From IMG/VR virus record IMGVR_UViG_3300022555_000013: DNA of 20,000 nucleotides; one strand, written 5' to 3'. A program made the position numbers and the translations under genes. Numbering within the stretch: the stretch's first letter is position 1; every line of letters starts with the position of its first letter. This document shows positions 4,815 through 11,449 of this stretch, one piece after another. The notes under the pieces were generated by a model. The model saw only the letters and a program-made list of their open reading frames with translations. It did not search any database and was not told where the DNA came from. The DNA comes from an uncultured virus (IMG/VR IMGVR_UViG_3300022555_000013). Taxonomy: Duplodnaviria; Heunggongvirae; Uroviricota; Caudoviricetes.

Positions 4815-5531
4815 ATGAAATATCTAATTGGCATACAACCCACAGGAAAACTGCATATTGGAAACTATTTGGGTTGTATCTCAAAGGGGTTAAGATTGCA
4901 AAATGAAGGTCATGATGTGACATTCCTGATAGCAAATTATCACAGCCTTACCACAAATTCATTTTCACCAATAACAGAATTGGAATTAATAAAGCTTGGT
5001 TGTAAAAACATAATTCACCAAACTCCAGATTATACAGAGCTTTTCTTTAAATTGTGCTGCAAAATGAATCTTGGAATTCTTCAAAAAATGCCACAATATA
5101 AGACTAAAAAAGGTGAATATGACCTTGGAATCCTTCTATACCCAGTATTAATGGCTGCCGATATCATAATCAATAATCCAGACTTCATTATCGTTGGACG
5201 GGATCAGGTTCCACATATTGAGCTCACCAATGACATCGCTAAAAGAGTTGGAGTAAAAAAACATTTTAATTATGAATTTGGAGACGTTGATAAAATAATG
5301 TCACTGGCTGATCCATCAGTTAAAATGTCGAAATCTCTTGGAGAACGACATGTACTATATTTATTTGATGAAGATTTTCACAAAAAACTACGAAAAGCCG
5401 ATTCAACACCCGCTGGGATTGACAATCTTCGTAAAATAGGATCAATATTCGGTGTTGAAGAAACCGAAAGTAATTCTGATTATAAAAATAATTTGGCGAT
5501 TAAATTAACTAATTTCTTCCAAGGTGTTTAA
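4815..5531 (+). CDS. trpS: Tryptophanyl-tRNA synthetase, compact form
   Basis: GIQPTGKLHIGNY (HIGH), YPVLMAADI, VGRDQVPHIELT and KMSKS class I motifs characteristic of TrpRS; 238 aa. Confidence 0.92.
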   Translation: MKYLIGIQPTGKLHIGNYLGCISKGLRLQNEGHDVTFLIANYHSLTTNSFSPITELELIKLGCKNIIHQTPDYTELFFKLCCKMNLGILQKMPQYKTKKGEYDLGILLYPVLMAADIIINNPDFIIVGRDQVPHIELTNDIAKRVGVKKHFNYEFGDVDKIMSLADPSVKMSKSLGERHVLYLFDEDFHKKLRKADSTPAGIDNLRKIGSIFGVEETESNSDYKNNLAIKLTNFFQGV

Positions 5532-6078
5532 ATTTTTAAATAAAATAACAACCCATGGTCAGCAAAAACGAATATTAAAAGCTGCCTTGATCGGATTTCT
5601 TGCTGGTAATTTTATTATAGAAGCCCTAAAAATATGGTTAATTACTAAATACACTTGGAATAATTTTTTCGTCCATTCATTTATAACATTAAGTTTAGAC
5701 TACATATTAATACTCCCAGTTCTTATAAATATTGTCATAACTAAAAATAAATATGCCAATTTAATTAGTAAGATAAATAAGATGTATGATGAAGCTAAAG
5801 GAACATACCATAATGATGTTGGCTACGTATACCCAGATCAAAAAGATATAAAACCAATTGAAATAAGATCATTGTACGATTTCTCAGCATATTTAATACA
5901 AATTAAAAAGGGGGATTTATTTTATTGCTTTAAAGGTCCTGTTGATATCGTTGTAATAAGTGCATCTGGCGGTAATAATACAATATCCTATTATATCGAA
6001 GAATATATCAACAAATTCGAAATAACTGATTCATTAAAAGAAACCAGACTCAAAAAATTAAAGAAACTTAATAAATGA
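5524..6078 (+). CDS. Hypothetical membrane protein with RxxKLKKL tail
   Basis: Two hydrophobic segments; ends ETRLKKLKKLNK. Confidence 0.75.
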   Translation: MFKFLNKITTHGQQKRILKAALIGFLAGNFIIEALKIWLITKYTWNNFFVHSFITLSLDYILILPVLINIVITKNKYANLISKINKMYDEAKGTYHNDVGYVYPDQKDIKPIEIRSLYDFSAYLIQIKKGDLFYCFKGPVDIVVISASGGNNTISYYIEEYINKFEITDSLKETRLKKLKKLNK

Positions 6079-6431
6079 ACTCATTTCTAAAATTTAAAGA
6101 ATTTATTATTAAGGAAATTGAAGATGCTGGTGTAAGTGCTCCAGTAACTGAATTTACACTTACATCAGATATTAATCTTGATTCTCTGGATTGGATAAAC
6201 ATCCTAATGAATATTGAATTAAACTATGGTATAGCAATACCAGACGATATAGCCGAAGATATACTTGCCAAATCAAGTAGAATACTTGATGGTATGTATC
6301 TATTAGGTCAAAAATTCCCAAATGAAATACCAACAATAGCAATGGAAAGAAAAGAAAAATTAAAAAAAAATTCAAAAAAAATGAAATTTAATTTTTTTTA
6401 TATTAAAAAAGGTTTTACATTTGCAGAGTGA
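6075..6431 (+). CDS. acpP: Acyl carrier protein-like (phosphopantetheine site); true stop may be 6384
   Basis: DINLDSLDWINILMNIELNYGIAIPD matches the ACP DSL motif; removing one A from the A9 run gives ERKEKLKKIQKK-stop at 6382-6384. Confidence 0.8.
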   Translation: MNSFLKFKEFIIKEIEDAGVSAPVTEFTLTSDINLDSLDWINILMNIELNYGIAIPDDIAEDILAKSSRILDGMYLLGQKFPNEIPTIAMERKEKLKKNSKKMKFNFFYIKKGFTFAE

Positions 6432-6453
6432 ATTTGATAAACGTTCATTGAAA
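6405..6453 (+). promoter_or_regulatory. Promoter copy 1 (TACATTTG -7 element) plus boxA-like GTTCATTGAAA
   Basis: 28-nt AAAAAAGGTTTTACATTTGCAGAGTGAA at 6405-6432 is identical to 6593-6620; boxA-like at 6443-6453. Confidence 0.75.
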
Positions 6454-6454
6454 T

Positions 6455-6550
6455 GGCGGGGAATGCGGAAGGATTAGCAGAGATGTGACAAATAGCGGTA
6501 ACGCTGCAACTAAACTGATCGCTTCGGAGGTTCGAATCCTTCCCTCGCCA
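6455..6550 (+). ncRNA. tRNA-like RNA with acceptor stem and T arm but no recognisable anticodon arm
   Basis: GGCGGGG/CCTCGCC-A acceptor; GGAGG-TTCGAAT-CCTTC T arm; internal GATTAG/CTGATC helix and TAGCG-GTAA-CGCTG hairpin. Confidence 0.65.
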
Positions 6551-6592
6551 CAAAAAATTAAAAAAAACTTTGCTCAAAATTTTTTTTATAAC

Positions 6593-6642
6593 AAAAAAGG
6601 TTTTACATTTGCAGAGTGAAATTAAAGATACGTTCTTTGAAA
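6593..6642 (+). promoter_or_regulatory. Promoter copy 2 (TACATTTG) plus boxA-like GTTCTTTGAAA
   Basis: Exact 28-nt repeat of 6405-6432; boxA-like at 6632-6642 immediately before the GC-rich RNA. Confidence 0.75.
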
Positions 6643-6650
6643 CTTTGAAA

Positions 6651-7665
6651 ATACATGACGGCTCTTATCCTTTGATCGTAGCCACAGCCTCACCCGCCTA
6701 ATTAGCGGGGAAACGAATGTGAATCGGTGAAAACTGGTTCGGGAAAGAGTTCGGGGTGATATGGCAACTTATCATAGGTATGCCAAAAGCAAGAGCCGTC
6801 TCCCATTACAGGTTTGTAACACGGAAGCCTAACCAGCAGAAGGGTAAAGTAACCTGAGCGAAATTGATCGAAACTGGGCGGGTGGTACCGCAGAAGTCGT
6901 GATAAAGTACCTAAAAACATGACGAATGTGGTTCGGGGCGATCCCCACTGCGGCTCCTTCTGGGGCGGCATATGGTGCGGATACGCTCCCGACCCATCGT
7001 CCGAAACTGATGGGTTCGCAAGGGGGAGAGTTTGCCGCTGTCAAAATAGCGGGAACGCCCTTTGTCGCCCGTCACCAATCTACGGCAATACCGTGGGGGA
7101 GTTCTGATCCGACTTCGGTCGTGATCTTCGGGGCATATGAAATAAGATGCCACCGCCAGTTTTCCCCGCAGCCCGTAGTCGCCAGCGGATTTTATTCCGC
7201 TTTCAGGTGGGTCTGGGGAGCCGTCACGCACAGTCGTAAAACCTGTGCTGCCGACCCCCCGAATACCCGCCACAACCGAGAGATGGGGATGCCCTATAAA
7301 TTTAGGGCACTATATTACCCCGTCATGTATGTAGATGGTTTACCCAGTGGACTACCCGCAGGGGATCGACAAAAATGACCCGCATTCTTCGAGTATTTCC
7401 GACCCCATGGGATTCCGCCCCCGCACCAGCCAACCCGCTTGTTTTTGATATTTCCAAGTGGCATGGCATCCCCCGCAGTGGACAGTAGTCCAGCGGAGCA
7501 AGCATCGGGGCACCGACCCGCTGGGAGCCGTCAGGCAATCCGAAAGGGAGGGGTACATTTTTGAGGTTTGTACCCCTACTTTCGGTGCCAATCCAAGTCG
7601 GAATGCCGTCCGACAATTTTTAACCGATGGTGCGGGGGGTTGAGACACTCAATCCTCACGCCATC
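6651..7665 (+). ncRNA. Large (~1 kb) highly structured non-coding RNA, family unassigned
   Basis: Abrupt GC-rich island with no credible ORF; many GNRA/UUCG hairpins and perfect long-range helices (6657-6666/6791-6800; 6945-6953/7473-7481; 7285-7293/7465-7473; 7418-7428/7628-7638); own promoter and boxA; terminal hairpin followed by a T run. Confidence 0.8.
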
Positions 7666-7678
7666 AAATTTTTTTAAG

Positions 7679-7825
7679 ATGTGGACTCAAGACGAACAAG
7701 ATAAACAAGATCAAGAAAGACGAGACGAAATCGAAAAAGGTGGCTGGATCGCAGTAATTGCTGTTTTTACCATCGCTATAGTCATCTTTCTTGGAAAATG
7801 CGTTTGGTTTTTTTTCACAAAATAA
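7679..7825 (+). CDS. Small single-pass membrane protein
   Basis: MWTQDEQDKQDQERRDEIEKGGWIAVIAVFTIAIVIFLGKCVWFFFTK; ATG at 7679 preferred over the upstream start inside the ncRNA. Confidence 0.6.
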   Translation: MWTQDEQDKQDQERRDEIEKGGWIAVIAVFTIAIVIFLGKCVWFFFTK

Positions 7826-7835
7826 AAAAAATAAA

Positions 7836-7976
7836 ATGGGCGAAATTATATTTACAATTGTTAATAAAATTGATATTACAATATTTGTATTGTGCGTACT
7901 ACCAGTATTAGCAGTGAGTTTGCTAATTGTAAGTGTAATGAACACACCTAAAAACACAACTAAAATAAAAAAATAA
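7836..7976 (+). CDS. Small single-pass membrane protein
   Basis: MGEIIFTIVNKIDITIFVLCVLPVLAVSLLIVSVMNTPK..., A-rich start context. Confidence 0.55.
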   Translation: MGEIIFTIVNKIDITIFVLCVLPVLAVSLLIVSVMNTPKNTTKIKK

Positions 7977-8011
7977 TTGAAAATAATTGAAAATAATTTA
8001 AACTTTTTGAT

Positions 8012-8064
8012 TATATTTGCATAAATAGAAAAAACAGACCTTTTTTTATTAATATATAAAGGTC
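8012..8064 (+). promoter_or_regulatory. Promoter region of the tRNA array leader: TATATTTG plus AATATATA motif inside GACCTTT/AAAGGTC inverted repeat
   Basis: TAnnTTTG at 8012-8019; AATATATA at 8051-8058. Confidence 0.55.
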
Positions 8065-8171
8065 AAGAATTAAAAAAGGCTCGAAAGGGCATAGAGAAAT
8101 AGAAAGCCAAAAAAGCTAAAAATTAAGAAAAAGAAATCGGGGGTCGCAAAGCTCCCAAAACACGAAAAGTT

Positions 8172-8261
8172 ATGATGAGAATGAGTAAACATAGTAAGTC
8201 CTTTAAATTTTGGTCATCACATGATCAAGGTTCGGGTTTATTATGTCTTATTCTAAAATAA
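8172..8261 (+). CDS. Putative attenuator leader peptide MMRMSKHSKSFKFWSSHDQGSGLLCLILK
   Basis: 29-codon ORF containing the antiterminator strand GGTTCGGGTTT (8229-8239); codons 5-17 encode only S, K, H, F, W. Confidence 0.75.
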   Translation: MMRMSKHSKSFKFWSSHDQGSGLLCLILK

Positions 8262-8280
8262 CTAAAATTTTAGATTACCG

Positions 8281-8318
8281 CAAAAAACCCGAACCCAACA
8301 GTTCGGGTTTTTTGTTTT
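8281..8318 (+). terminator. Intrinsic terminator (attenuator) upstream of the tRNA array
   Basis: CAAAAAACCCGAAC (8281-8294) / GTTCGGGTTTTTTG (8301-8314) perfect 14-bp inverted repeat with U tract. Confidence 0.85.
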
Positions 8319-8319
8319 G

Positions 8320-8330
8320 GTTCTTTGACA
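8320..8330 (+). promoter_or_regulatory. boxA-like antitermination element GTTCTTTGACA
   Basis: Same motif at 6443, 6632 and 19825; resembles rRNA-operon boxA. Confidence 0.6.
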
Positions 8331-8381
8331 TATTGATTTAAAAAATTGCATTCACTGGAATCCAATTCCAGTGAATGAAAT

Positions 8382-8459
8382 GCGTCTGTAGCTCAGATGG
8401 TAGATAAAAGCACCGCTCTTTTAAAGCGGGGGTCGACAGTTCGAACCTGTCCAGACGCA
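8382..8459 (+). tRNA. tRNA-Lys(UUU), enlarged D loop
   Basis: GCGTCTG/CAGACGC; CCGCT-CTTTTAA-AGCGG; GACAG-TTCGAAC-CTGTC. Confidence 0.9.
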
Positions 8460-8464
8460 CAAAT

Positions 8465-8547
8465 ACGGCAGTAGGCATTGGTAAGCCCAGCAGTCTCCAA
8501 AACTGTAACCCGAAAGGGTCTTAAGCGTTCAAATCGTTTCTGCCGTG
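8465..8547 (+). tRNA. tRNA-Trp(CCA) with long variable arm
   Basis: ACGGCAG/CTGCCGT-G; GCAGT-CTCCAAA-ACTGT; variable hairpin ACCC-GAAA-GGGT; AAGCG-TTCAAAT-CGTTT. Confidence 0.85.
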
Positions 8548-8552
8548 CAAAT

Positions 8553-8641
8553 GGAAGATGAAGCTGGCGTTGGGCTGGTCACGGTTTTGAAAACCGAGGG
8601 TACGGGTTAAACCGTATGGGAATCGTGCTCTCCTTCTTCCG
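8553..8641 (+). tRNA. tRNA-Ser(UGA), atypical D and T loops
   Basis: GGAAGA/TCTTCC-G; CGGT-TTTGAAA-ACCG; long variable arm TACGG/CCGTA. Confidence 0.75.
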
Positions 8642-8642
8642 C

Positions 8643-8716
8643 TGGGATTAAAGAATACATCCAGCAAATTAAAAAACTTGTTCTGAAAACACAAACCAAA
8701 ACGTATTCTGTTCCCA
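8643..8716 (+). ncRNA. Small hairpin RNA with CAGCAA bulge and a Phe-like anticodon loop (CTGAAAA)
   Basis: TGGGA..AGAATAC / GTATTCT..TCCCA closing helix; TTGT-T-CTGAAAA-C-ACAA inner stem-loop. Confidence 0.45.
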
Positions 8717-8722
8717 AAATTT

Positions 8723-8807
8723 GGAGGTTCCCAGTTGGTGTGGTATACCGCCTCGAAAGCGGTGAAATCAATAAAATGATGTTAGAGATCGTCACTCTAA
8801 ACCTCCG
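8723..8807 (+). tRNA. tRNA-Ser(CGA), atypical D and T loops
   Basis: GGAGGTT/AACCTCC-G; ACCGC-CTCGAAA-GCGGT; TAGAG-ATCGTCA-CTCTA. Confidence 0.75.
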
Positions 8808-8816
8808 CAAACTAAT

Positions 8817-8904
8817 GGAAGCGTACCCAAATGGTAAAGGGGGCAATTTGCTAAATTGTTAGGACGGTAATTCCGTTGCGTGAGTTCGAACCTCACCGTT
8901 TCCT
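8817..8904 (+). tRNA. tRNA-Ser(GCU)
   Basis: GGAAGCG/CGTTTCC; GCAAT-TTGCTAA-ATTGT; long variable arm; GTGAG-TTCGAAC-CTCAC. Confidence 0.9.
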
Positions 8905-8912
8905 CTAAATAT

Positions 8913-8986
8913 GGCGTTATTAGATAATGGTAGTCGGTCACACTGTGGATGTGTTCATGATATCGGTTCAACTCCGATATAACGCC
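8913..8986 (+). tRNA. tRNA-His(GUG)
   Basis: G-1 plus GCGTTAT/ATAACGC-C73; CACA-CTGTGGA-TGTG; ATCGG-TTCAACT-CCGAT. Confidence 0.85.
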
Positions 8987-8991
8987 CAAAT

Positions 8992-9076
8992 ATGGAAGTA
9001 GTTTAACTGGTAAAACACCGCTCATCGAGGGCGGAGAGTGTCAGTACCAAAAAAGGTTCGAACCCTACCTTCCATA
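8992..9076 (+). pseudogene. Degenerate tRNA-Arg(UCG)-like gene
   Basis: ATGGAAG/CTTCCAT; D arm intact; CCGCT-CATCGAG-GGCGG (A33 instead of U33); T stem interrupted by a CCAAAAAA insertion. Confidence 0.55.
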
Positions 9077-9089
9077 CAAATTTTTAAAT

Positions 9090-9180
9090 GGTGATTGTAG
9101 TTCCGTAATTGGTAGCGGGCCTGACTGTGAATCAGGTGAGCGGAAGCTCCTTGCGAGATCGTACCTCGTCTTTCACCCCA
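9090..9180 (+). tRNA. tRNA-His(GUG) with long variable arm and encoded CCA
   Basis: CCTGA-CTGTGAA-TCAGG; variable hairpin GAGC-GGAA-GCTC; GCGAG-ATCGTAC-CTCGT; acceptor with mismatches. Confidence 0.7.
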
Positions 9181-9184
9181 AAAT

Positions 9185-9255
9185 GCGGTTGTAGCTGAGT
9201 AGGTTAGCACTGGCGTGAAGCCCCAGAGACATCGGTTCGATCCCGATCATCCGCA
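9185..9255 (+). tRNA. tRNA-Phe(GAA) with atypical anticodon loop
   Basis: GCGGTTG/CATCCGC; CTGG-C-GTGAAGC-C-CCAG; ATCGG-TTCGATC-CCGAT. Confidence 0.7.
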
Positions 9256-9263
9256 CAAAAAAC

Positions 9264-9359
9264 GGGGAAGATACCTCACAACTTTGGAAAGTGGGGGATA
9301 ATCTGGAAAGATTATATGCAGCAAAATCAAACAAATTGGTTCGATTCCATTCTTCCCCA
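9264..9359 (+). ncRNA. tRNA-like element (acceptor and T arm; two internal TGGAAA hairpins)
   Basis: GGGGAAG/CTTCCCC-A; TGG-TTCGATT-CCA; ATAATCT-GGAA-AGATTAT hairpin; no canonical D or anticodon arm. Confidence 0.55.
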
Positions 9360-9364
9360 CCTAT

Positions 9365-9439
9365 GGTCTGGTAGCTCCTAACTGGTAGAGCAAGGGACTG
9401 AAAATCCCTGTGTTGGCGGTTCAAATCCGTCTCAGACCA
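9365..9439 (+). tRNA. tRNA-Phe(GAA)
   Basis: GGTCTGG/TCAGACC-A; AGGGA-CTGAAAA-TCCCT; GGCGG-TTCAAAT-CCGTC. Confidence 0.95.
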
Positions 9440-9444
9440 CAAAT

Positions 9445-9530
9445 GGAAGTTTGACAGAGTTTGGTAATGTGCCAGTTTGGAAGACTGAGTCGGGGTAAAA
9501 CCTACGGGGGATCAAAGCCCTCAACTTCCG
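9445..9530 (+). tRNA. tRNA-Ser(GGA)
   Basis: GGAAGTT/AACTTCC-G; CAGT-TTGGAAG-ACTG; long variable arm; GGGGG-ATCAAAG-CCCTC. Confidence 0.8.
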
Positions 9531-9590: not shown

Positions 9591-10490
9591 ATGAAAAAAA
9601 TATGTGAAAATTGTAATCAAGAATATGAAACAAATCAAAGTAAATCTAAATTTTGTGAAAAAAAATGTAGACTAATTTTTCATAAAAAGATAAGCCCATC
9701 AAATAATGAAAGTGAAAATATATTAAAATGGTCGAAGAAATTAAAAGCTATTAATTTACTTGAAAATAAATGTAAAATATGTGGAGATGATAATATATTT
9801 CATTTAATATTTCATCATAAAGAAAATAATAAGGTATATAAAATAGCTGGTATTTGGGATAAAAGATGGAGTGATATAAAAAAAGAAATAGAAAAATGTG
9901 AACTGCTATGTGAAAATTGTCATAGAGAAAAACACTATAATGAAAAAGAATATGAAAGTAGAAGAAAAACAAAAGAAATTATAGTTAATTATAAAGGTAA
10001 TAAATGTGAAATTTGTGGATATAATAAAAGTTTAGCAGCACTAATATTTCATCATAAAGATAAAAATAATAAAAAATATGAAATTGGTAAAATAAACATA
10101 AGAGTTGATAACTTGCAGCAATTAAATGATGATGTTATGCTTGAAATAGATAAATGTGAATTATTATGTTCAAATTGCCATCGTGAAAAGCATGCAAGCA
10201 ATATTAATTTAGAAAAAATATTGAATAAATCAGAAATATACAAGGAGCAAGGTAAAAAAATTGATAAAAATATGATTTTCAAATTATATTTTGAAGATAA
10301 CAAAAAGATAATTGAAATATCAAAAATATTAAATTGCTCTAAAAGTAGTATAAGTGAGATTATTAAAGAAGAAAAGATTAAAAAATTAAAATATACAAAA
10401 GTCTTTTCAAGTCCCCAAAAAGGAACGGTAACTGACGAAAAGTCCCATCGTAGGTTTGAATCCTACTTGGCGCACAAACGGGTTCTGTAG
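9591..10490 (+). CDS. Free-standing HNH homing endonuclease-like protein with tandem HNH domains and C-terminal HTH
   Basis: Two repeats of CxxCG...FHH...KCELLCxNCHRExH; N-terminal CxxC; IIEISKILNCSKSSISEII HTH-like; much lower GC than flanks. Confidence 0.85.
   Translation: MKKICENCNQEYETNQSKSKFCEKKCRLIFHKKISPSNNESENILKWSKKLKAINLLENKCKICGDDNIFHLIFHHKENNKVYKIAGIWDKRWSDIKKEIEKCELLCENCHREKHYNEKEYESRRKTKEIIVNYKGNKCEICGYNKSLAALIFHHKDKNNKKYEIGKINIRVDNLQQLNDDVMLEIDKCELLCSNCHREKHASNINLEKILNKSEIYKEQGKKIDKNMIFKLYFEDNKKIIEISKILNCSKSSISEIIKEEKIKKLKYTKVFSSPQKGTVTDEKSHRRFESYLAHKRVL
10450..10474 (+). pseudogene. 3' remnant of a tRNA (T arm plus acceptor 3' strand)
   Basis: GTAGG-TTTGAAT-CCTAC-TTGGCGC-A with no matching 5' half upstream. 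Confidence 0.55.
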
Positions 10491-10581
10491 TGCAAGTGGT
10501 AGCACAGTTGTAAACCAGAAAAGTGTTGGGGAAACCCAAATTATAAAACAAAATGAGTGGGTTCAAGTCCCACCAGAACCC
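10480..10581 (+). ncRNA. tRNA-like element with intact acceptor, D and T arms but expanded, non-canonical anticodon region
   Basis: GGTTCTG/CAGAACC; GTGC-AAGTGGTA-GCAC; GTGGG-TTCAAGT-CCCAC; internal TTGGG-GAAA-CCCAA hairpin. Confidence 0.6.
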
Positions 10582-11122: not shown

Positions 11123-11193
11123 ACGAGTGTAGCACAATGGTAGTGCAGCGGTCTCCAAAACCGCCTATGGAGGTTCAATCCCTTCCACTCGTA
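11123..11193 (+). tRNA. tRNA-Trp(CCA)
   Basis: ACGAGTG/CACTCGT; GCGGT-CTCCAAA-ACCGC; GGAGG-TTCAATC-CCTTC. Confidence 0.93.
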
Positions 11194-11212
11194 CCGCAAA
11201 TCATATTTTATT

Positions 11213-11285
11213 GACCTCGTAGCTTAATTGATAGAGTAACTGGCTTTTAACCAGTGGGTTCTGGGTTTGAGTCCCAGCGGGGTCA
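11213..11285 (+). tRNA. tRNA-Lys(UUU)
   Basis: GACCTCG/CGGGGTC; ACTGG-CTTTTAA-CCAGT; CTGGG-TTTGAGT-CCCAG. Confidence 0.9.
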
Positions 11286-11357
11286 CTTCGGGTCGCCAGA
11301 TTGTTATATTTTCATAGGGCATGCACCCCTTCAAGCAGGGTCCATAGAAAATAGATT

Positions 11358-11430
11358 GGGTTCGTATCACAATTGGTAGTGAAACTGTCTCTTAAACAGT
11401 GCTATAAGGGTTCAAATCCCTTTGAGCCCA
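11358..11430 (+). tRNA. tRNA-Lys(CUU)
   Basis: GGGTTCG/TGAGCCC; ACTGT-CTCTTAA-ACAGT; AAGGG-TTCAAAT-CCCTT. Confidence 0.92.
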
Positions 11431-11449
11431 CAAATTTTTTAAATCAATA

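What the first reader, a model, noticed from the sequence alone, without database searches (positions are those of the whole stretch)
6651..7665. ~1 kb ornate non-coding RNA with rRNA-style expression signals
Seen: a sharply bounded GC-rich island in an AT-rich genome, carrying only overlapping, implausible ORFs on both strands. Local hairpins include GAATCGGT-GAAA-ACTGGTTC, CGAC-TTCG-GTCG, ACCCATC/GATGGGT, GCACAG/CTGTGC, TGCCCTA/TAGGGCA, TGGAC/GTCCA, GGGTACA/TGTACCC and GTCGGA/TCCGAC. Long-range helices include 6657-6666/6791-6800 (10 bp), ~6871-6887/7148-7162 (bulged), 6945-6953/7473-7481 (9 bp), 7285-7293/7465-7473 (9 bp) and GGCACCGA/TCGGTGCC near 7509/7582. It begins just after a TAnnTTTG promoter plus boxA and ends in a long hairpin followed by a T run. 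Established: GOLLD and ROOL are large ornate RNAs often found next to phage tRNA clusters. Inference: this is a GOLLD/ROOL-like RNA or a new large RNA class. I could not see rRNA, RNase P, tmRNA or group I/II intron hallmarks.
Basis: partly seen in the sequence, partly recalled or inferred. Interest (0 to 1): 0.85.

Follow-up and report, generated by a model that had tools for sequence, protein, structure and literature searches.

The report
New large folded RNA in giant phage
A giant freshwater phage carries a gene for a roughly 1,000-base, heavily folded non-coding RNA that matches no catalogued RNA family and follows the same leader sequence that a sister phage places in front of the known giant RNA GOLLD, so it is probably a new relative-in-kind of those mysterious phage RNAs.

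Summary
Window 6651-7675 is a sharply bounded GC-rich island (45-57% GC against about 30%). It has no credible ORF and far more self-complementarity than shuffled controls. A 27-nt promoter repeat and a boxA-like leader precede it, and a strong hairpin plus T-run ends it. A 96.6%-identical environmental contig differs by many 1-nt indels and one 8-nt indel, so no reading frame survives. Most differences lie in loops or keep base pairs. Contigs from freshwater and peat RNA libraries cover parts of the island but not the flanking protein genes. Rfam 15 gives no hit, including GOLLD, ROOL, introns, RNase P and tmRNA, and GOLLD's signature motifs are absent. The phage is related to the 642-735 kb huge phages predicted to infect Bacteroidetes. 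In one sister phage the same 20-nt leader precedes a bona fide GOLLD RNA, and the 642-kb genome also carries GOLLD. My reading is an unclassified, roughly 1-kb phage RNA in two provisional parts (5' 6651-7131, 3' 7132-7625) that fills the GOLLD niche. What it does is unknown. Covariation could not be tested, because only near-identical homologues could be retrieved.

The parts
6596..6622 (+). Promoter repeat, copy 2 (contains TACATTTG at 6604-6611); drives the large RNA
   Evidence: The exact 27-nt repeat with 6408-6434 is read from the sequence. Its 19-nt core occurs twice in the window against 0.01 expected. Contig L015 starts at 6612, directly after the box.
6631..6650 (+). boxA-like leader (two tandem YTTTGAAA units)
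   Evidence: The 12-mer matches at 6631 (0 mismatches), 6442 (1) and 8319 (2, just before the tRNA array). In total 11 matches with up to 2 mismatches against 3.9+-1.9 expected. The same 20-nt pattern precedes GOLLD in G001 and other GC-rich RNAs in related phages.
6651..7131 (+). 5' part of the RNA (provisional division)
   Evidence: Folds on its own with z -3.95, 0 of 100 shuffles as stable. Nearly invariant between the window and L015, with 2 substitutions. An RNA-library contig covers 6660-6822 with 1 mismatch. Absent from the single peat RNA contig, whose sequence 5' of 7132 is unrelated.
7132..7625 (+). 3' part of the RNA (provisional division)
   Evidence: Folds on its own with z -5.96, 0 of 100 shuffles as stable (7132-7640). 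RNA-library contigs cover 7102-7553, 7091-7592 and 7132-7463. The peat contig has only 3 mismatches and 6 gaps over its 332 matched nt.
7300..7520 (+). Variable region inside the 3' part (apical hairpin 7347-7418 and a multi-branch region 7400-7530)
   Evidence: 29 of the 35 differing alignment columns between the window and L015 lie here. Both alleles fold to the same local architecture. Helix 7429-7432/7464-7467 is kept through three substitutions, and G-U becomes G-C at 7437/7459.
7626..7675 (+). Intrinsic terminator: 17-bp hairpin 7626-7665, AAA, then T7 at 7669-7675
   Evidence: Fold of 7590-7680: -34.2 kcal/mol, z -4.69. The 5' arm (7628-7638) is also complementary to 7418-7428, an 11-nt exact complement.
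6408..6434 (+). Promoter repeat, copy 1; drives the tRNA-like element
6455..6550 (+). Aberrant tRNA-like element (7-bp acceptor stem plus canonical T arm, with one long arm in place of the D and anticodon arms); neighbouring unit with the same promoter and leader type
   Evidence: Fold z -2.4. Not called by ARAGORN, with or without introns, nor by Rfam tRNA at E<=10. Only its T arm matches elsewhere.

Best explanation
Window 6612-7675 (+ strand) is a self-contained gene for a highly structured non-coding RNA. The mature RNA is about 1.0 kb, roughly 6651-7665. It is carried by a huge freshwater phage of the clade whose largest members are predicted to infect Bacteroidetes.

It is transcribed from a promoter that is duplicated verbatim in front of a neighbouring tRNA-like gene. 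Transcription passes a boxA-like leader and stops at a strong intrinsic terminator. I provisionally divide the RNA into a 5' part (6651-7131) and a 3' part (7132-7625), because one peat RNA contig matches only from 7132 onwards.

It belongs to no catalogued family. It sits in the same kind of tRNA/translation island, and behind the same leader, as GOLLD does in a sister phage. I infer (not shown) that it works as GOLLD and ROOL are thought to work. That is, it would be an abundant RNA made during infection that acts through its own three-dimensional fold, possibly as a homo-oligomeric particle, within the phage's translation-takeover programme of tRNAs, a TrpRS-like protein and YqeY. It would not act as an mRNA, an antisense regulator or a mobile intron.
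For: Shown:
- GC island and ORF-poverty.
- No frame survives comparison with L015. Indels of +1, +1, -1, -1, -8, -1, +1, +1, +1 and -1 nt fall within 7300-7520. Codes with TAG or TGA read through do not rescue a conserved frame.
- Excess self-complementarity.
- The + strand folds better than the - strand (-406 vs -393 kcal/mol; z -7.0 vs -4.9).
- Each part folds significantly on its own.
- The two alleles keep the same local architecture. Of the roughly 24 difference events between the window and L015, I read one as clearly disrupting a pair (C7292-G7307) and two as shortening a helix at its end. The rest lie in loops, bulges or apical parts, or keep pairing.
- RNA-library contigs cover 6660-6822, 7102-7553 and 7091-7592 in two runs of one freshwater study, and 7132-7463 in one peat run of another study. 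Nothing longer than 40 nt lies on the flanking protein genes.
- In the one sample with both libraries, contig depth per sequenced base is about 30 times higher in the RNA run (8.4 in 67 M letters) than in the DNA run (6.4 in 1544 M letters). The tool warns that depth is a poor measure of expression.
- Promoter repeat, leader and terminator.
- Context: TrpRS-like protein, ACP-like protein, YqeY, HNH endonuclease and 11-12 tRNAs.
- Clade: the TrpRS-like protein is 72.6% and 65.7% identical to those of LR756501 and LR756502, which are 735 and 642 kb. Genomes of those sizes are placed in Mahaphage and predicted to replicate in Bacteroidetes (PMC7162821, passages read).
- The same leader precedes a GOLLD hit of 163 bits (cut-off 150) in IMG/VR record G001, and LR756502 has a GOLLD hit of 275 bits.
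Against: - No covariation test was possible. The only homologues retrieved are 94-100% identical, and RNAalifold on the two sequences found 0 pairs changed on both sides.
- One stem pair (C7292-G7307) is broken in L015 and, by the same G>A change, in runs X10, X13 and X8.
- Several long-range pairs of the global MFE are destroyed by the 8-nt deletion in L015, so the global fold is unreliable.
- The - strand also folds significantly (z -4.9), so a DNA-level or antisense role is not excluded by folding alone.
- RNA-library contigs do not prove transcription, strand or ends (tool warning).
- The RNA is absent from five related phage records, including two complete huge genomes, both by BLAST and by a covariance model of its core. 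It is therefore not a conserved feature of the clade.
- Function and oligomerisation are pure inference from analogy.
Confidence: 0.6

Rival explanations
1. It is a true but extremely divergent GOLLD RNA. The variable 5' region would be 6651-7131, and the 3' region would have drifted beyond recognition by the Rfam model.
For: - It follows the same leader as GOLLD in a sister phage and is of similar total length (about 920 nt in G001, about 1015 nt here).
- It can be divided into a 5' part and a 3' part that is shared with a peat sequence whose 5' side differs. [quoted passage not shown]
- A long hairpin capped by a CAAA(A) loop (7008-7074) loosely recalls GOLLD's first hairpin in the consensus.
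Against: - No GOLLD hit at E<=10 in searches of 1601 nt and 601 nt with permissive filters. The same library scored the two sister-phage GOLLDs at 163 and 275 bits.
- None of 9 signature motifs taken from the printed consensus is present exactly. The long ones (3'-terminal 12-mer, 14-nt pseudoknot-side motif) are absent even with 2 mismatches.
- GC content is very different (55% here against 37-45% in the two GOLLDs).
- There is no A-rich linker.
Confidence: 0.12
2. It is, or contains, a mobile RNA element, such as an ORF-less intron or ribozyme, or the RNA of a mobile cassette, that has spread between unrelated phages.
For: - The stretch 7132-7463 is about 99% identical in one peat RNA contig whose 5' flank is unrelated.
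- The element is patchy among related phages.
- A weak DNA contig joint 6613->8303 would delete the whole unit (side only 24 nt; the tool warns that such joints are often false).
- An HNH endonuclease lies in the same island.
Against: - No group I/II intron, HEARO or self-cleaving ribozyme hit at E<=10.
- It has its own promoter and terminator and is not embedded in a host gene.
- No interrupted tRNA or ORF flanks it, and ARAGORN with introns finds nothing.
- No transposase, reverse transcriptase or integrase is adjacent.
Confidence: 0.07
3. It acts at the DNA level or is non-functional. It could be a GC-rich remnant of foreign DNA or a decayed gene, or a replication or packaging site whose palindromes give the appearance of RNA structure.
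For: The - strand also folds better than shuffles (z -4.9). The unit is absent from related phages. No covariation was found.
Against: - The promoter repeat, leader and terminator frame it exactly.
- RNA-library contigs cover it and not its flanks.
- About 700 nt are almost invariant between alleles, while indels are confined to apical parts.
- The + strand is about 14 kcal/mol more stable than the - strand.
- No Pfam family reached a gathering score in the island ORFs scanned.
Confidence: 0.06
4. It is a long cis-acting leader, regulatory RNA or antisense decoy for host RNAs, or it controls the two small membrane-protein ORFs downstream (7678-7825, 7836-7976).
For: Small ORFs follow on the same strand. 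Alternative pairings exist between 7418-7428 and the terminator arm 7628-7638, and the 5' end has four possible partners, which could form a switch.
Against: A 1-kb leader would be without precedent. A strong terminator separates it from the ORFs. No riboswitch or leader family matches.
Confidence: 0.05

Closest known systems
GOLLD RNA (Rfam RF02032)
   Same: A large non-coding RNA (over 800 nt) encoded by phages in or beside tRNA islands. It can be divided into a 5' part and a 3' part that recurs with a different 5' side. It follows the same 20-nt leader as a bona fide GOLLD in a sister phage (G001). GOLLD is also present in the related 642-kb phage genome (properties of GOLLD from passages of 10.1101/2024.12.08.627333).
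   Different: No score against the GOLLD covariance model at E<=10. The signature motifs of the conserved 3' region are absent. GC content is much higher (55% against 37-45%). There is no A-rich linker and no embedded tRNA. It has its own promoter and terminator instead of being embedded between tRNAs.
ROOL RNA
   Same: A large ornate phage/prophage RNA near tRNA islands, of unknown function (passages).
   Different: No Rfam family beyond tRNA and chance-level hits was reported for the island. ROOL is shorter, about 580 nt by my recall. No sequence or motif similarity was seen.
Unclassified leader-driven RNA of LR756501.1 (about 380 nt; L028, with a homologue in L037)
   Same: It follows the same boxA-like leader in a related huge phage. 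It is GC-rich in an AT-rich genome, ends in a hairpin plus T-run, and its only Rfam hit at E<=1 is a sub-threshold sRNA match in the terminator region just downstream.
   Different: It is about 380 nt, not about 1000 nt. BLAST finds no similarity beyond the leader, and the core model R1 finds none.

Membership tests
GOLLD (RF02032) | Match to the covariance model of the universally conserved 3' region (gathering score 150 bits) | tested here: not met
   No GOLLD hit at gathering or at E<=10 in 6300-7900 and 7080-7680. L015 also had no hit at gathering. Positive controls in the same library: L048 at 275.3 bits and L049/L046 at 163.4 bits. Caveat: the E-value is multiplied over 4227 families, so a per-family E above about 0.002 would not be listed.
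GOLLD (RF02032) | Conserved sequence motifs of the 3' region, as printed in the model consensus (3'-terminal loop motif, pseudoknot-side motif, and others) | tested here: not met
   0 of 9 motifs found exactly. The two longest are absent even with 2 mismatches, and only short motifs match with 1-2 mismatches, as expected by chance.
GOLLD (RF02032) | Encoded by phages or prophages, often next to tRNA islands | tested here: met
   tRNA arrays at 8382-9530 and 11123-11431, with a TrpRS-like protein, YqeY and HNH endonuclease nearby. Huge-phage relatives found.
GOLLD (RF02032) | More than 800 nt, with a less conserved 5' region and a conserved 3' region | tested here: inconclusive
   Length of about 1015 nt is met. 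Conservation of a 3' region rests on one peat RNA contig (7132-7463 at about 99%, with an unrelated 5' flank) and on small word shares in other peat runs. Between the two lake alleles the variable stretch is actually inside the 3' part.
GOLLD / ROOL | Homo-oligomeric RNA-only nanocage | not testable with these tools
   Needs an in-vitro transcript and cryo-EM or mass photometry.
ROOL | Match to the Rfam covariance model | tested here: not met
   No hit to any family other than tRNA at gathering. Only chance-level miRNA, sRNA and lncRNA hits at E<=10.
Group I / group II introns, RNase P RNA, tmRNA, HEARO, OLE, raiA | Match to the respective Rfam models; tmRNA or intron-containing tRNA call by ARAGORN | tested here: not met
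   Rfam 15, 4227 families; ARAGORN, including tmRNA and intron mode: nothing in 6300-7900.
Structured non-coding RNA (generic) | Base pairs supported by compensatory changes across homologues | tested here: inconclusive
   Only two full sequences, 96.6% identical. RNAalifold found 0 of 299 pairs changed on both sides and 4 changed on one side with the pair kept. By hand, one 4-bp helix is kept through three substitutions, and both alleles share the same local fold. One pair is broken.

The most novel reading that the evidence does not exclude
This is the founding member of a new class of roughly 1-kb ornate phage RNAs that replaces GOLLD in some huge Bacteroidetes-type phages. It would be made from the same stable-RNA expression cassette (promoter, boxA-like leader, tRNA-island location). 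A 3' part would be shared almost unchanged (about 99%) between lake and peat phages, and the 5' part would be exchangeable. Like GOLLD and ROOL, it would self-assemble into an RNA-only particle during infection. That would mean huge phages draw on a repertoire of interchangeable giant RNAs (GOLLD, this RNA, and the 380-nt RNA of the 735-kb phage) for one still unknown task.
Probability: 0.4. Interest if true: 0.8.

Novelty: new variant of a known kind. Interest (0 to 1): 0.64.

Why it matters
GOLLD and ROOL are among the largest bacterial and phage RNAs of unknown function, and they were recently shown to form RNA-only nanocages (10.1101/2024.12.08.627333, passages read). A third, unrelated sequence family in the same genomic setting, behind the same leader and in sister phages, would show that the niche is conserved rather than the sequence. 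That would give a comparative handle on what these RNAs do. It would also point to an expression cassette, the leader, that can be used to fish further giant RNAs out of huge-phage genomes. The finding also places GOLLD itself in the largest known phage genomes.

Tried and rejected
Homologue searches that gave nothing real:
- blastn (distant mode) of the island against 50,697 phage records found no match.
- BLAST of the island against five related IMG/VR records and against the 735-kb and 642-kb genomes gave only 14-20-nt chance hits plus the leader.
- Five island k-mers (17-19 nt) and the 19-nt promoter core were scanned against IMG/VR, and one 19-mer against GTDB genomes. These gave 0 to 9 loci each, and in all of them only the k-mer itself matched.
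One is the window's own contig, one is the 96.6% homologue L015, and 7 are chance hits in GC-rich DNA.
- A covariance model of the core 7180-7330 (R1) found only the window and L015 among 13 sources. In five phage records it gave one 16-bit hit (E 0.37), which lies inside AT-rich coding DNA.

Other analyses:
- Internal duplication of the RNA was rejected. Segment-to-segment local alignment scores are within the shuffle range except one marginal pair (25 against a shuffle maximum of 24).
- The CCGCAG motif (5 copies in the island) is not clearly above chance for the window (6 found vs 1.7 expected; 2 of 200 shuffles reach 6).
- Coding under TAG=Q or table 4 was rejected, because the longer ORFs that appear (up to 308 aa) are broken by L015's indels.
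- GC islands in the five TrpRS-related loci are tRNA clusters, not homologues.
- A clade-specific GOLLD model was abandoned. MAFFT misaligned the two GOLLD 3' ends (A3), and a model from two sequences would be weaker than Rfam's.

From read laying:
- Parts of the island without RNA-contig cover (6823-7090 and 7593-7675) mean nothing either way.
- The DNA contig joint 6613->8303 has a 24-nt side and lies at short repeats, so I treat it as unreliable.

Literature and earlier notes:
- Literature searches found no description of such an RNA. The searches used the terms GOLLD/ROOL/phage/tRNA; large structured RNA/phage/metatranscriptom/covariation; and GOLLD/freshwater/lake (listings and abstracts only).
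- A search for the leader sequence together with 'boxA' returned only unrelated primer matches.
- Earlier findings of this scan hold nothing for this place or this sequence.
Full report
THE OBSERVATION.

The window is AT-rich (mostly 23-36% GC). It rises to 45-57% GC between 6601 and 7800, with sharp edges. A script recovered the exact complements 6657-6666/6791-6800, 6945-6953/7473-7481 and 7285-7293/7465-7473.

The density of exact complementary k-mers is far above 200 dinucleotide-preserving shuffles. Counts are 80 vs 39+-8 for 7-mers, 36 vs 10+-4 for 8-mers and 15 vs 3.1+-2.3 for 9-mers, with 0 of 200 shuffles reaching the observed value in each case. The MFE of 6651-7640 is -406 kcal/mol (z -7.0) on the + strand, and -393 kcal/mol (z -4.9) on the - strand. 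Any single 9-10-bp long-range helix is individually unremarkable, however, and the global MFE is not trustworthy in detail.

NOT CODING.

Only overlapping ORFs of up to 150 aa occur, on both strands. None of the 7 island ORFs scanned reaches a Pfam gathering score. It is a 1019-nt contig, 96.6% identical, spanning window 6612-7640.

The two copies differ in 35 alignment columns, and 29 of these lie in 7300-7520. The differences there include single-base insertions and deletions at ten places and an 8-nt deletion, with a net length change of -7 nt. No reading frame can be conserved. This holds in table 11 and also when TAG or TGA is read through. The flanking genes read normally in table 11.

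SIGNS OF A STRUCTURED RNA.

Folded independently, the two alleles of the variable region adopt the same local architecture. The first element is a long hairpin at 7347-7418, whose apical part changes in length and sequence while its basal stems persist. The second is a multi-branch region at 7400-7530.
- In the multi-branch region, the 4-bp helix 7429-7432/7464-7467 is kept through three substitutions (A7428G, G7429C, T7464G) that shift its register by one.
- The G-U pair 7437/7459 becomes G-C.
- C7517T turns a C-G pair into U-G.
- The remaining changes fall in loops and junctions. For example, the loop of hairpin 7479-7492 grows from 4 to 5 nt.

Against this, C7292-G7307 is broken in L015, and runs X10, X13 and X8 show the same G>A change. 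Two indels shorten helices at their ends. The 8-nt deletion also removes long-range pairs that the global MFE had drawn. RNAalifold on two such similar sequences shows no pair with changes on both sides. This pattern is what a structured RNA would show, but it is not a statistical covariation test.

EXPRESSION SIGNALS.

It lies in a 27-nt stretch repeated exactly at 6408-6434 (sequence). The 19-nt core occurs twice in the window against 0.01 expected. The bare TAnnTTTG motif is not enriched in the window.

Copy 1 precedes an odd tRNA-like element (6455-6550). Copy 2 precedes the large RNA. Each copy is followed by a boxA-like element, at 6442 (1 mismatch) and at 6631 (exact). A third copy, with 2 mismatches, lies at 8319, just before the tRNA array that starts at 8382. 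That the element resembles boxA of rRNA operons is my recollection, and a literature search did not help.

The unit ends in a 17-bp hairpin (7626-7665) followed by seven T. L015 starts one base after the TACATTTG box and ends inside the 5' arm of the terminator.

RNA EVIDENCE.

Twenty public runs hold at least part of 6600-7700. They include freshwater and lake DNA runs with 59-100% of the sampled words, two freshwater RNA runs (19-28%) and five peat RNA runs (8-12%). I laid four runs on 5500-9000.
- The two freshwater RNA runs (one study) gave contigs on 6660-6822 (1 mismatch), 7102-7553 and 7091-7592 (about 94% identical).
- A peat RNA run from another study gave a 415-nt contig that matches 7132-7463 with 3 mismatches and 6 gaps. 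Its 83 nt upstream of 7132 are unrelated to the window.
- No RNA contig longer than 40 nt lay on the flanking protein genes. The pieces on 6522-6558 are generic tRNA T-arm matches.
- In the sample with both libraries, contig depth per sequenced base is about 30 times higher in the RNA library than in the DNA library.

The tool warns that contigs from RNA libraries prove neither transcription, strand nor ends, and that depth is a poor measure. I take this as good but not conclusive evidence of an abundant transcript.

WHOSE GENE IS IT.

The neighbours are a TrpRS-like protein (4815-5531), an ACP-like protein, an HNH endonuclease, a methyltransferase, YqeY, and 11-12 tRNAs. The TrpRS-like protein is 72.6% identical to one in LR756501.1/LR756503.1 (735,411 bp) and 65.7% identical to one in LR756502.1 (642,428 bp). 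It is 63-71% identical to five IMG/VR contigs. Genomes of 642 and 735 kb are the largest described in PMC7162821, where they fall in the Mahaphage clade and are predicted to replicate in Bacteroidetes (passages read). The window therefore comes from a relative of these huge freshwater phages.

COMPARISON WITH KNOWN FAMILIES.

Rfam 15 (4227 models) finds only tRNAs in the window at gathering thresholds. In 6300-7900 and 7080-7680 at E<=10 it finds nothing but chance-level miRNA, sRNA and lncRNA hits. ARAGORN finds no tmRNA or intron-bearing tRNA there. The island is also absent from the related phage records. This was shown by BLAST and by a covariance model of its best-conserved core, 7180-7330. 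That model's only hit was a 16-bit match inside AT-rich coding DNA.

THE GOLLD CONNECTION.

BLAST of the unit against LR756501.1 matched only the leader, at a site followed by a GC-rich, terminator-ended stretch of about 380 nt with no Rfam family. I then used the 20-nt leader pattern as bait in IMG/VR and obtained 14 loci.
- Most look like chance or coding matches (my reading of the printed flanks).
- One (L037) is a homologue of that 380-nt RNA.
- One (L044) is followed by two sub-threshold manA-RNA hits.
- One (L046) lies on the same contig as the closest TrpRS relative. There the leader is followed, after about 450 nt, by a GOLLD hit of 163.4 bits (cut-off 150, E 1e-44) with a tRNA-Lys inside its linker.

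LR756502.1 also has a GOLLD (275 bits) flanked by tRNAs. LR756501.1 has none, and 16 other records have none.

[quoted passage not shown] The window RNA shares the setting, the leader and the size. One peat contig suggests it may also have a 5' part that differs between relatives. It lacks what defines GOLLD. It gives no score against the model that scored the two sister GOLLDs strongly. None of nine consensus motifs is present. It has no A-rich linker, and its GC content is 55% against 37-45%.

WHAT IT MOST LIKELY IS AND DOES.

Shown: a self-contained, non-coding, strongly self-complementary unit of about 1.0 kb with its own promoter repeat, leader and terminator. Contigs from RNA libraries of two studies cover parts of it. 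It sits in the translation island of a huge phage.

Inferred: it is a stable structured RNA of a family not yet catalogued. It can be divided into parts at 6651-7131 and 7132-7625, which fold independently with z -3.95 and -5.96.

Inferred by analogy only: it does the job that GOLLD does in sister phages. That would make it an abundant infection-stage RNA that acts through its fold, perhaps as a homo-oligomeric particle, in connection with tRNAs or ribosomes. The repeated motifs may reflect alternative or intermolecular pairing, but I did not test this. These are GAGCCGTC three times, complementary to the 5' end, and CCCCGCA-type motifs complementary to the terminator arm.

Rivals are a very divergent GOLLD, a mobile RNA element, a DNA-level or decayed element, and a cis-regulatory leader. 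Their evidence is listed in the rival explanations.

LIMITS.

No divergent homologue could be retrieved. The key test, covariation, therefore remains open. Supplementary files of the papers were not consulted.

VERDICT.

I file it as a new variant of the known kind 'large ornate phage RNAs beside tRNA islands', not as a member of GOLLD or ROOL.

Noticed in passing
window 6455-6550 (+), with promoter copy 6408-6434: An aberrant tRNA-like element. It has a 7-bp acceptor stem and a canonical T arm, but a single long irregular arm replaces the D and anticodon arms, and no CCA is encoded. It has the same promoter and boxA-like leader as the large RNA. ARAGORN does not call it (including intron mode), nor does Rfam tRNA at E<=10. 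Only its T arm matches other phage records.
   Followed up: partly
L048 = LR756502.1 434685-435091: The 642-kb huge phage genome carries a full-length GOLLD RNA (RF02032, 275 bits) with tRNAs directly on both sides. The word GOLLD does not occur in the main text of the paper describing genomes of that size (PMC7162821, term search).
   Followed up: partly
L049 1026-1964 (IMG/VR record G001, 30199-30662 for the Rfam-matched part): A GOLLD RNA (163 bits) with a tRNA-Lys inside its linker. It is preceded by the same 20-nt leader as the window RNA, directly after a tRNA-Asn, and is followed by another tRNA-Asn.
   Followed up: partly
L028, minus strand about 1100-1520 (LR756501.1 near 608,000-608,414); homologue in L037: A GC-rich stretch of about 380 nt that ends in a hairpin and T-run and follows the same leader in the 735-kb phage. 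It is a second unclassified candidate RNA. The only Rfam hit at E<=1 is a sub-threshold sRNA match (29 bits against an 80-bit cut-off) in the terminator region just downstream.
   Followed up: partly
L044 1222-1592 (-): In another IMG/VR phage contig the same leader is followed by two tandem manA-RNA matches, both below the gathering score (37.8 and 26.7 bits against 55.2).
   Followed up: no
window 10481-10581 and 8465-9177: Rfam calls a 101-nt tRNA that abuts the end of the HNH endonuclease ORF (9591-10490), and ARAGORN misses it. Several other tRNAs of the array are 84-89 nt long. Rfam and ARAGORN disagree on four of them. These may carry long variable arms or insertions.
   Followed up: no
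window 4815-5531: The TrpRS-like protein is only 238 aa, and its best Pfam stretch covers positions 99-231 of the 292-position class-I W/Y synthetase profile. It may be a truncated or non-canonical synthetase. It is conserved at 63-73% identity in the related huge phages.
   Followed up: no
window 6613 / 8303: One DNA contig of run X8 joins 6613 to 8303, skipping the RNA unit and the two small ORFs. The shorter side is only 24 nt and short repeats lie nearby, so it may be an artefact. If real, some relatives lack the whole cassette.
   Followed up: no
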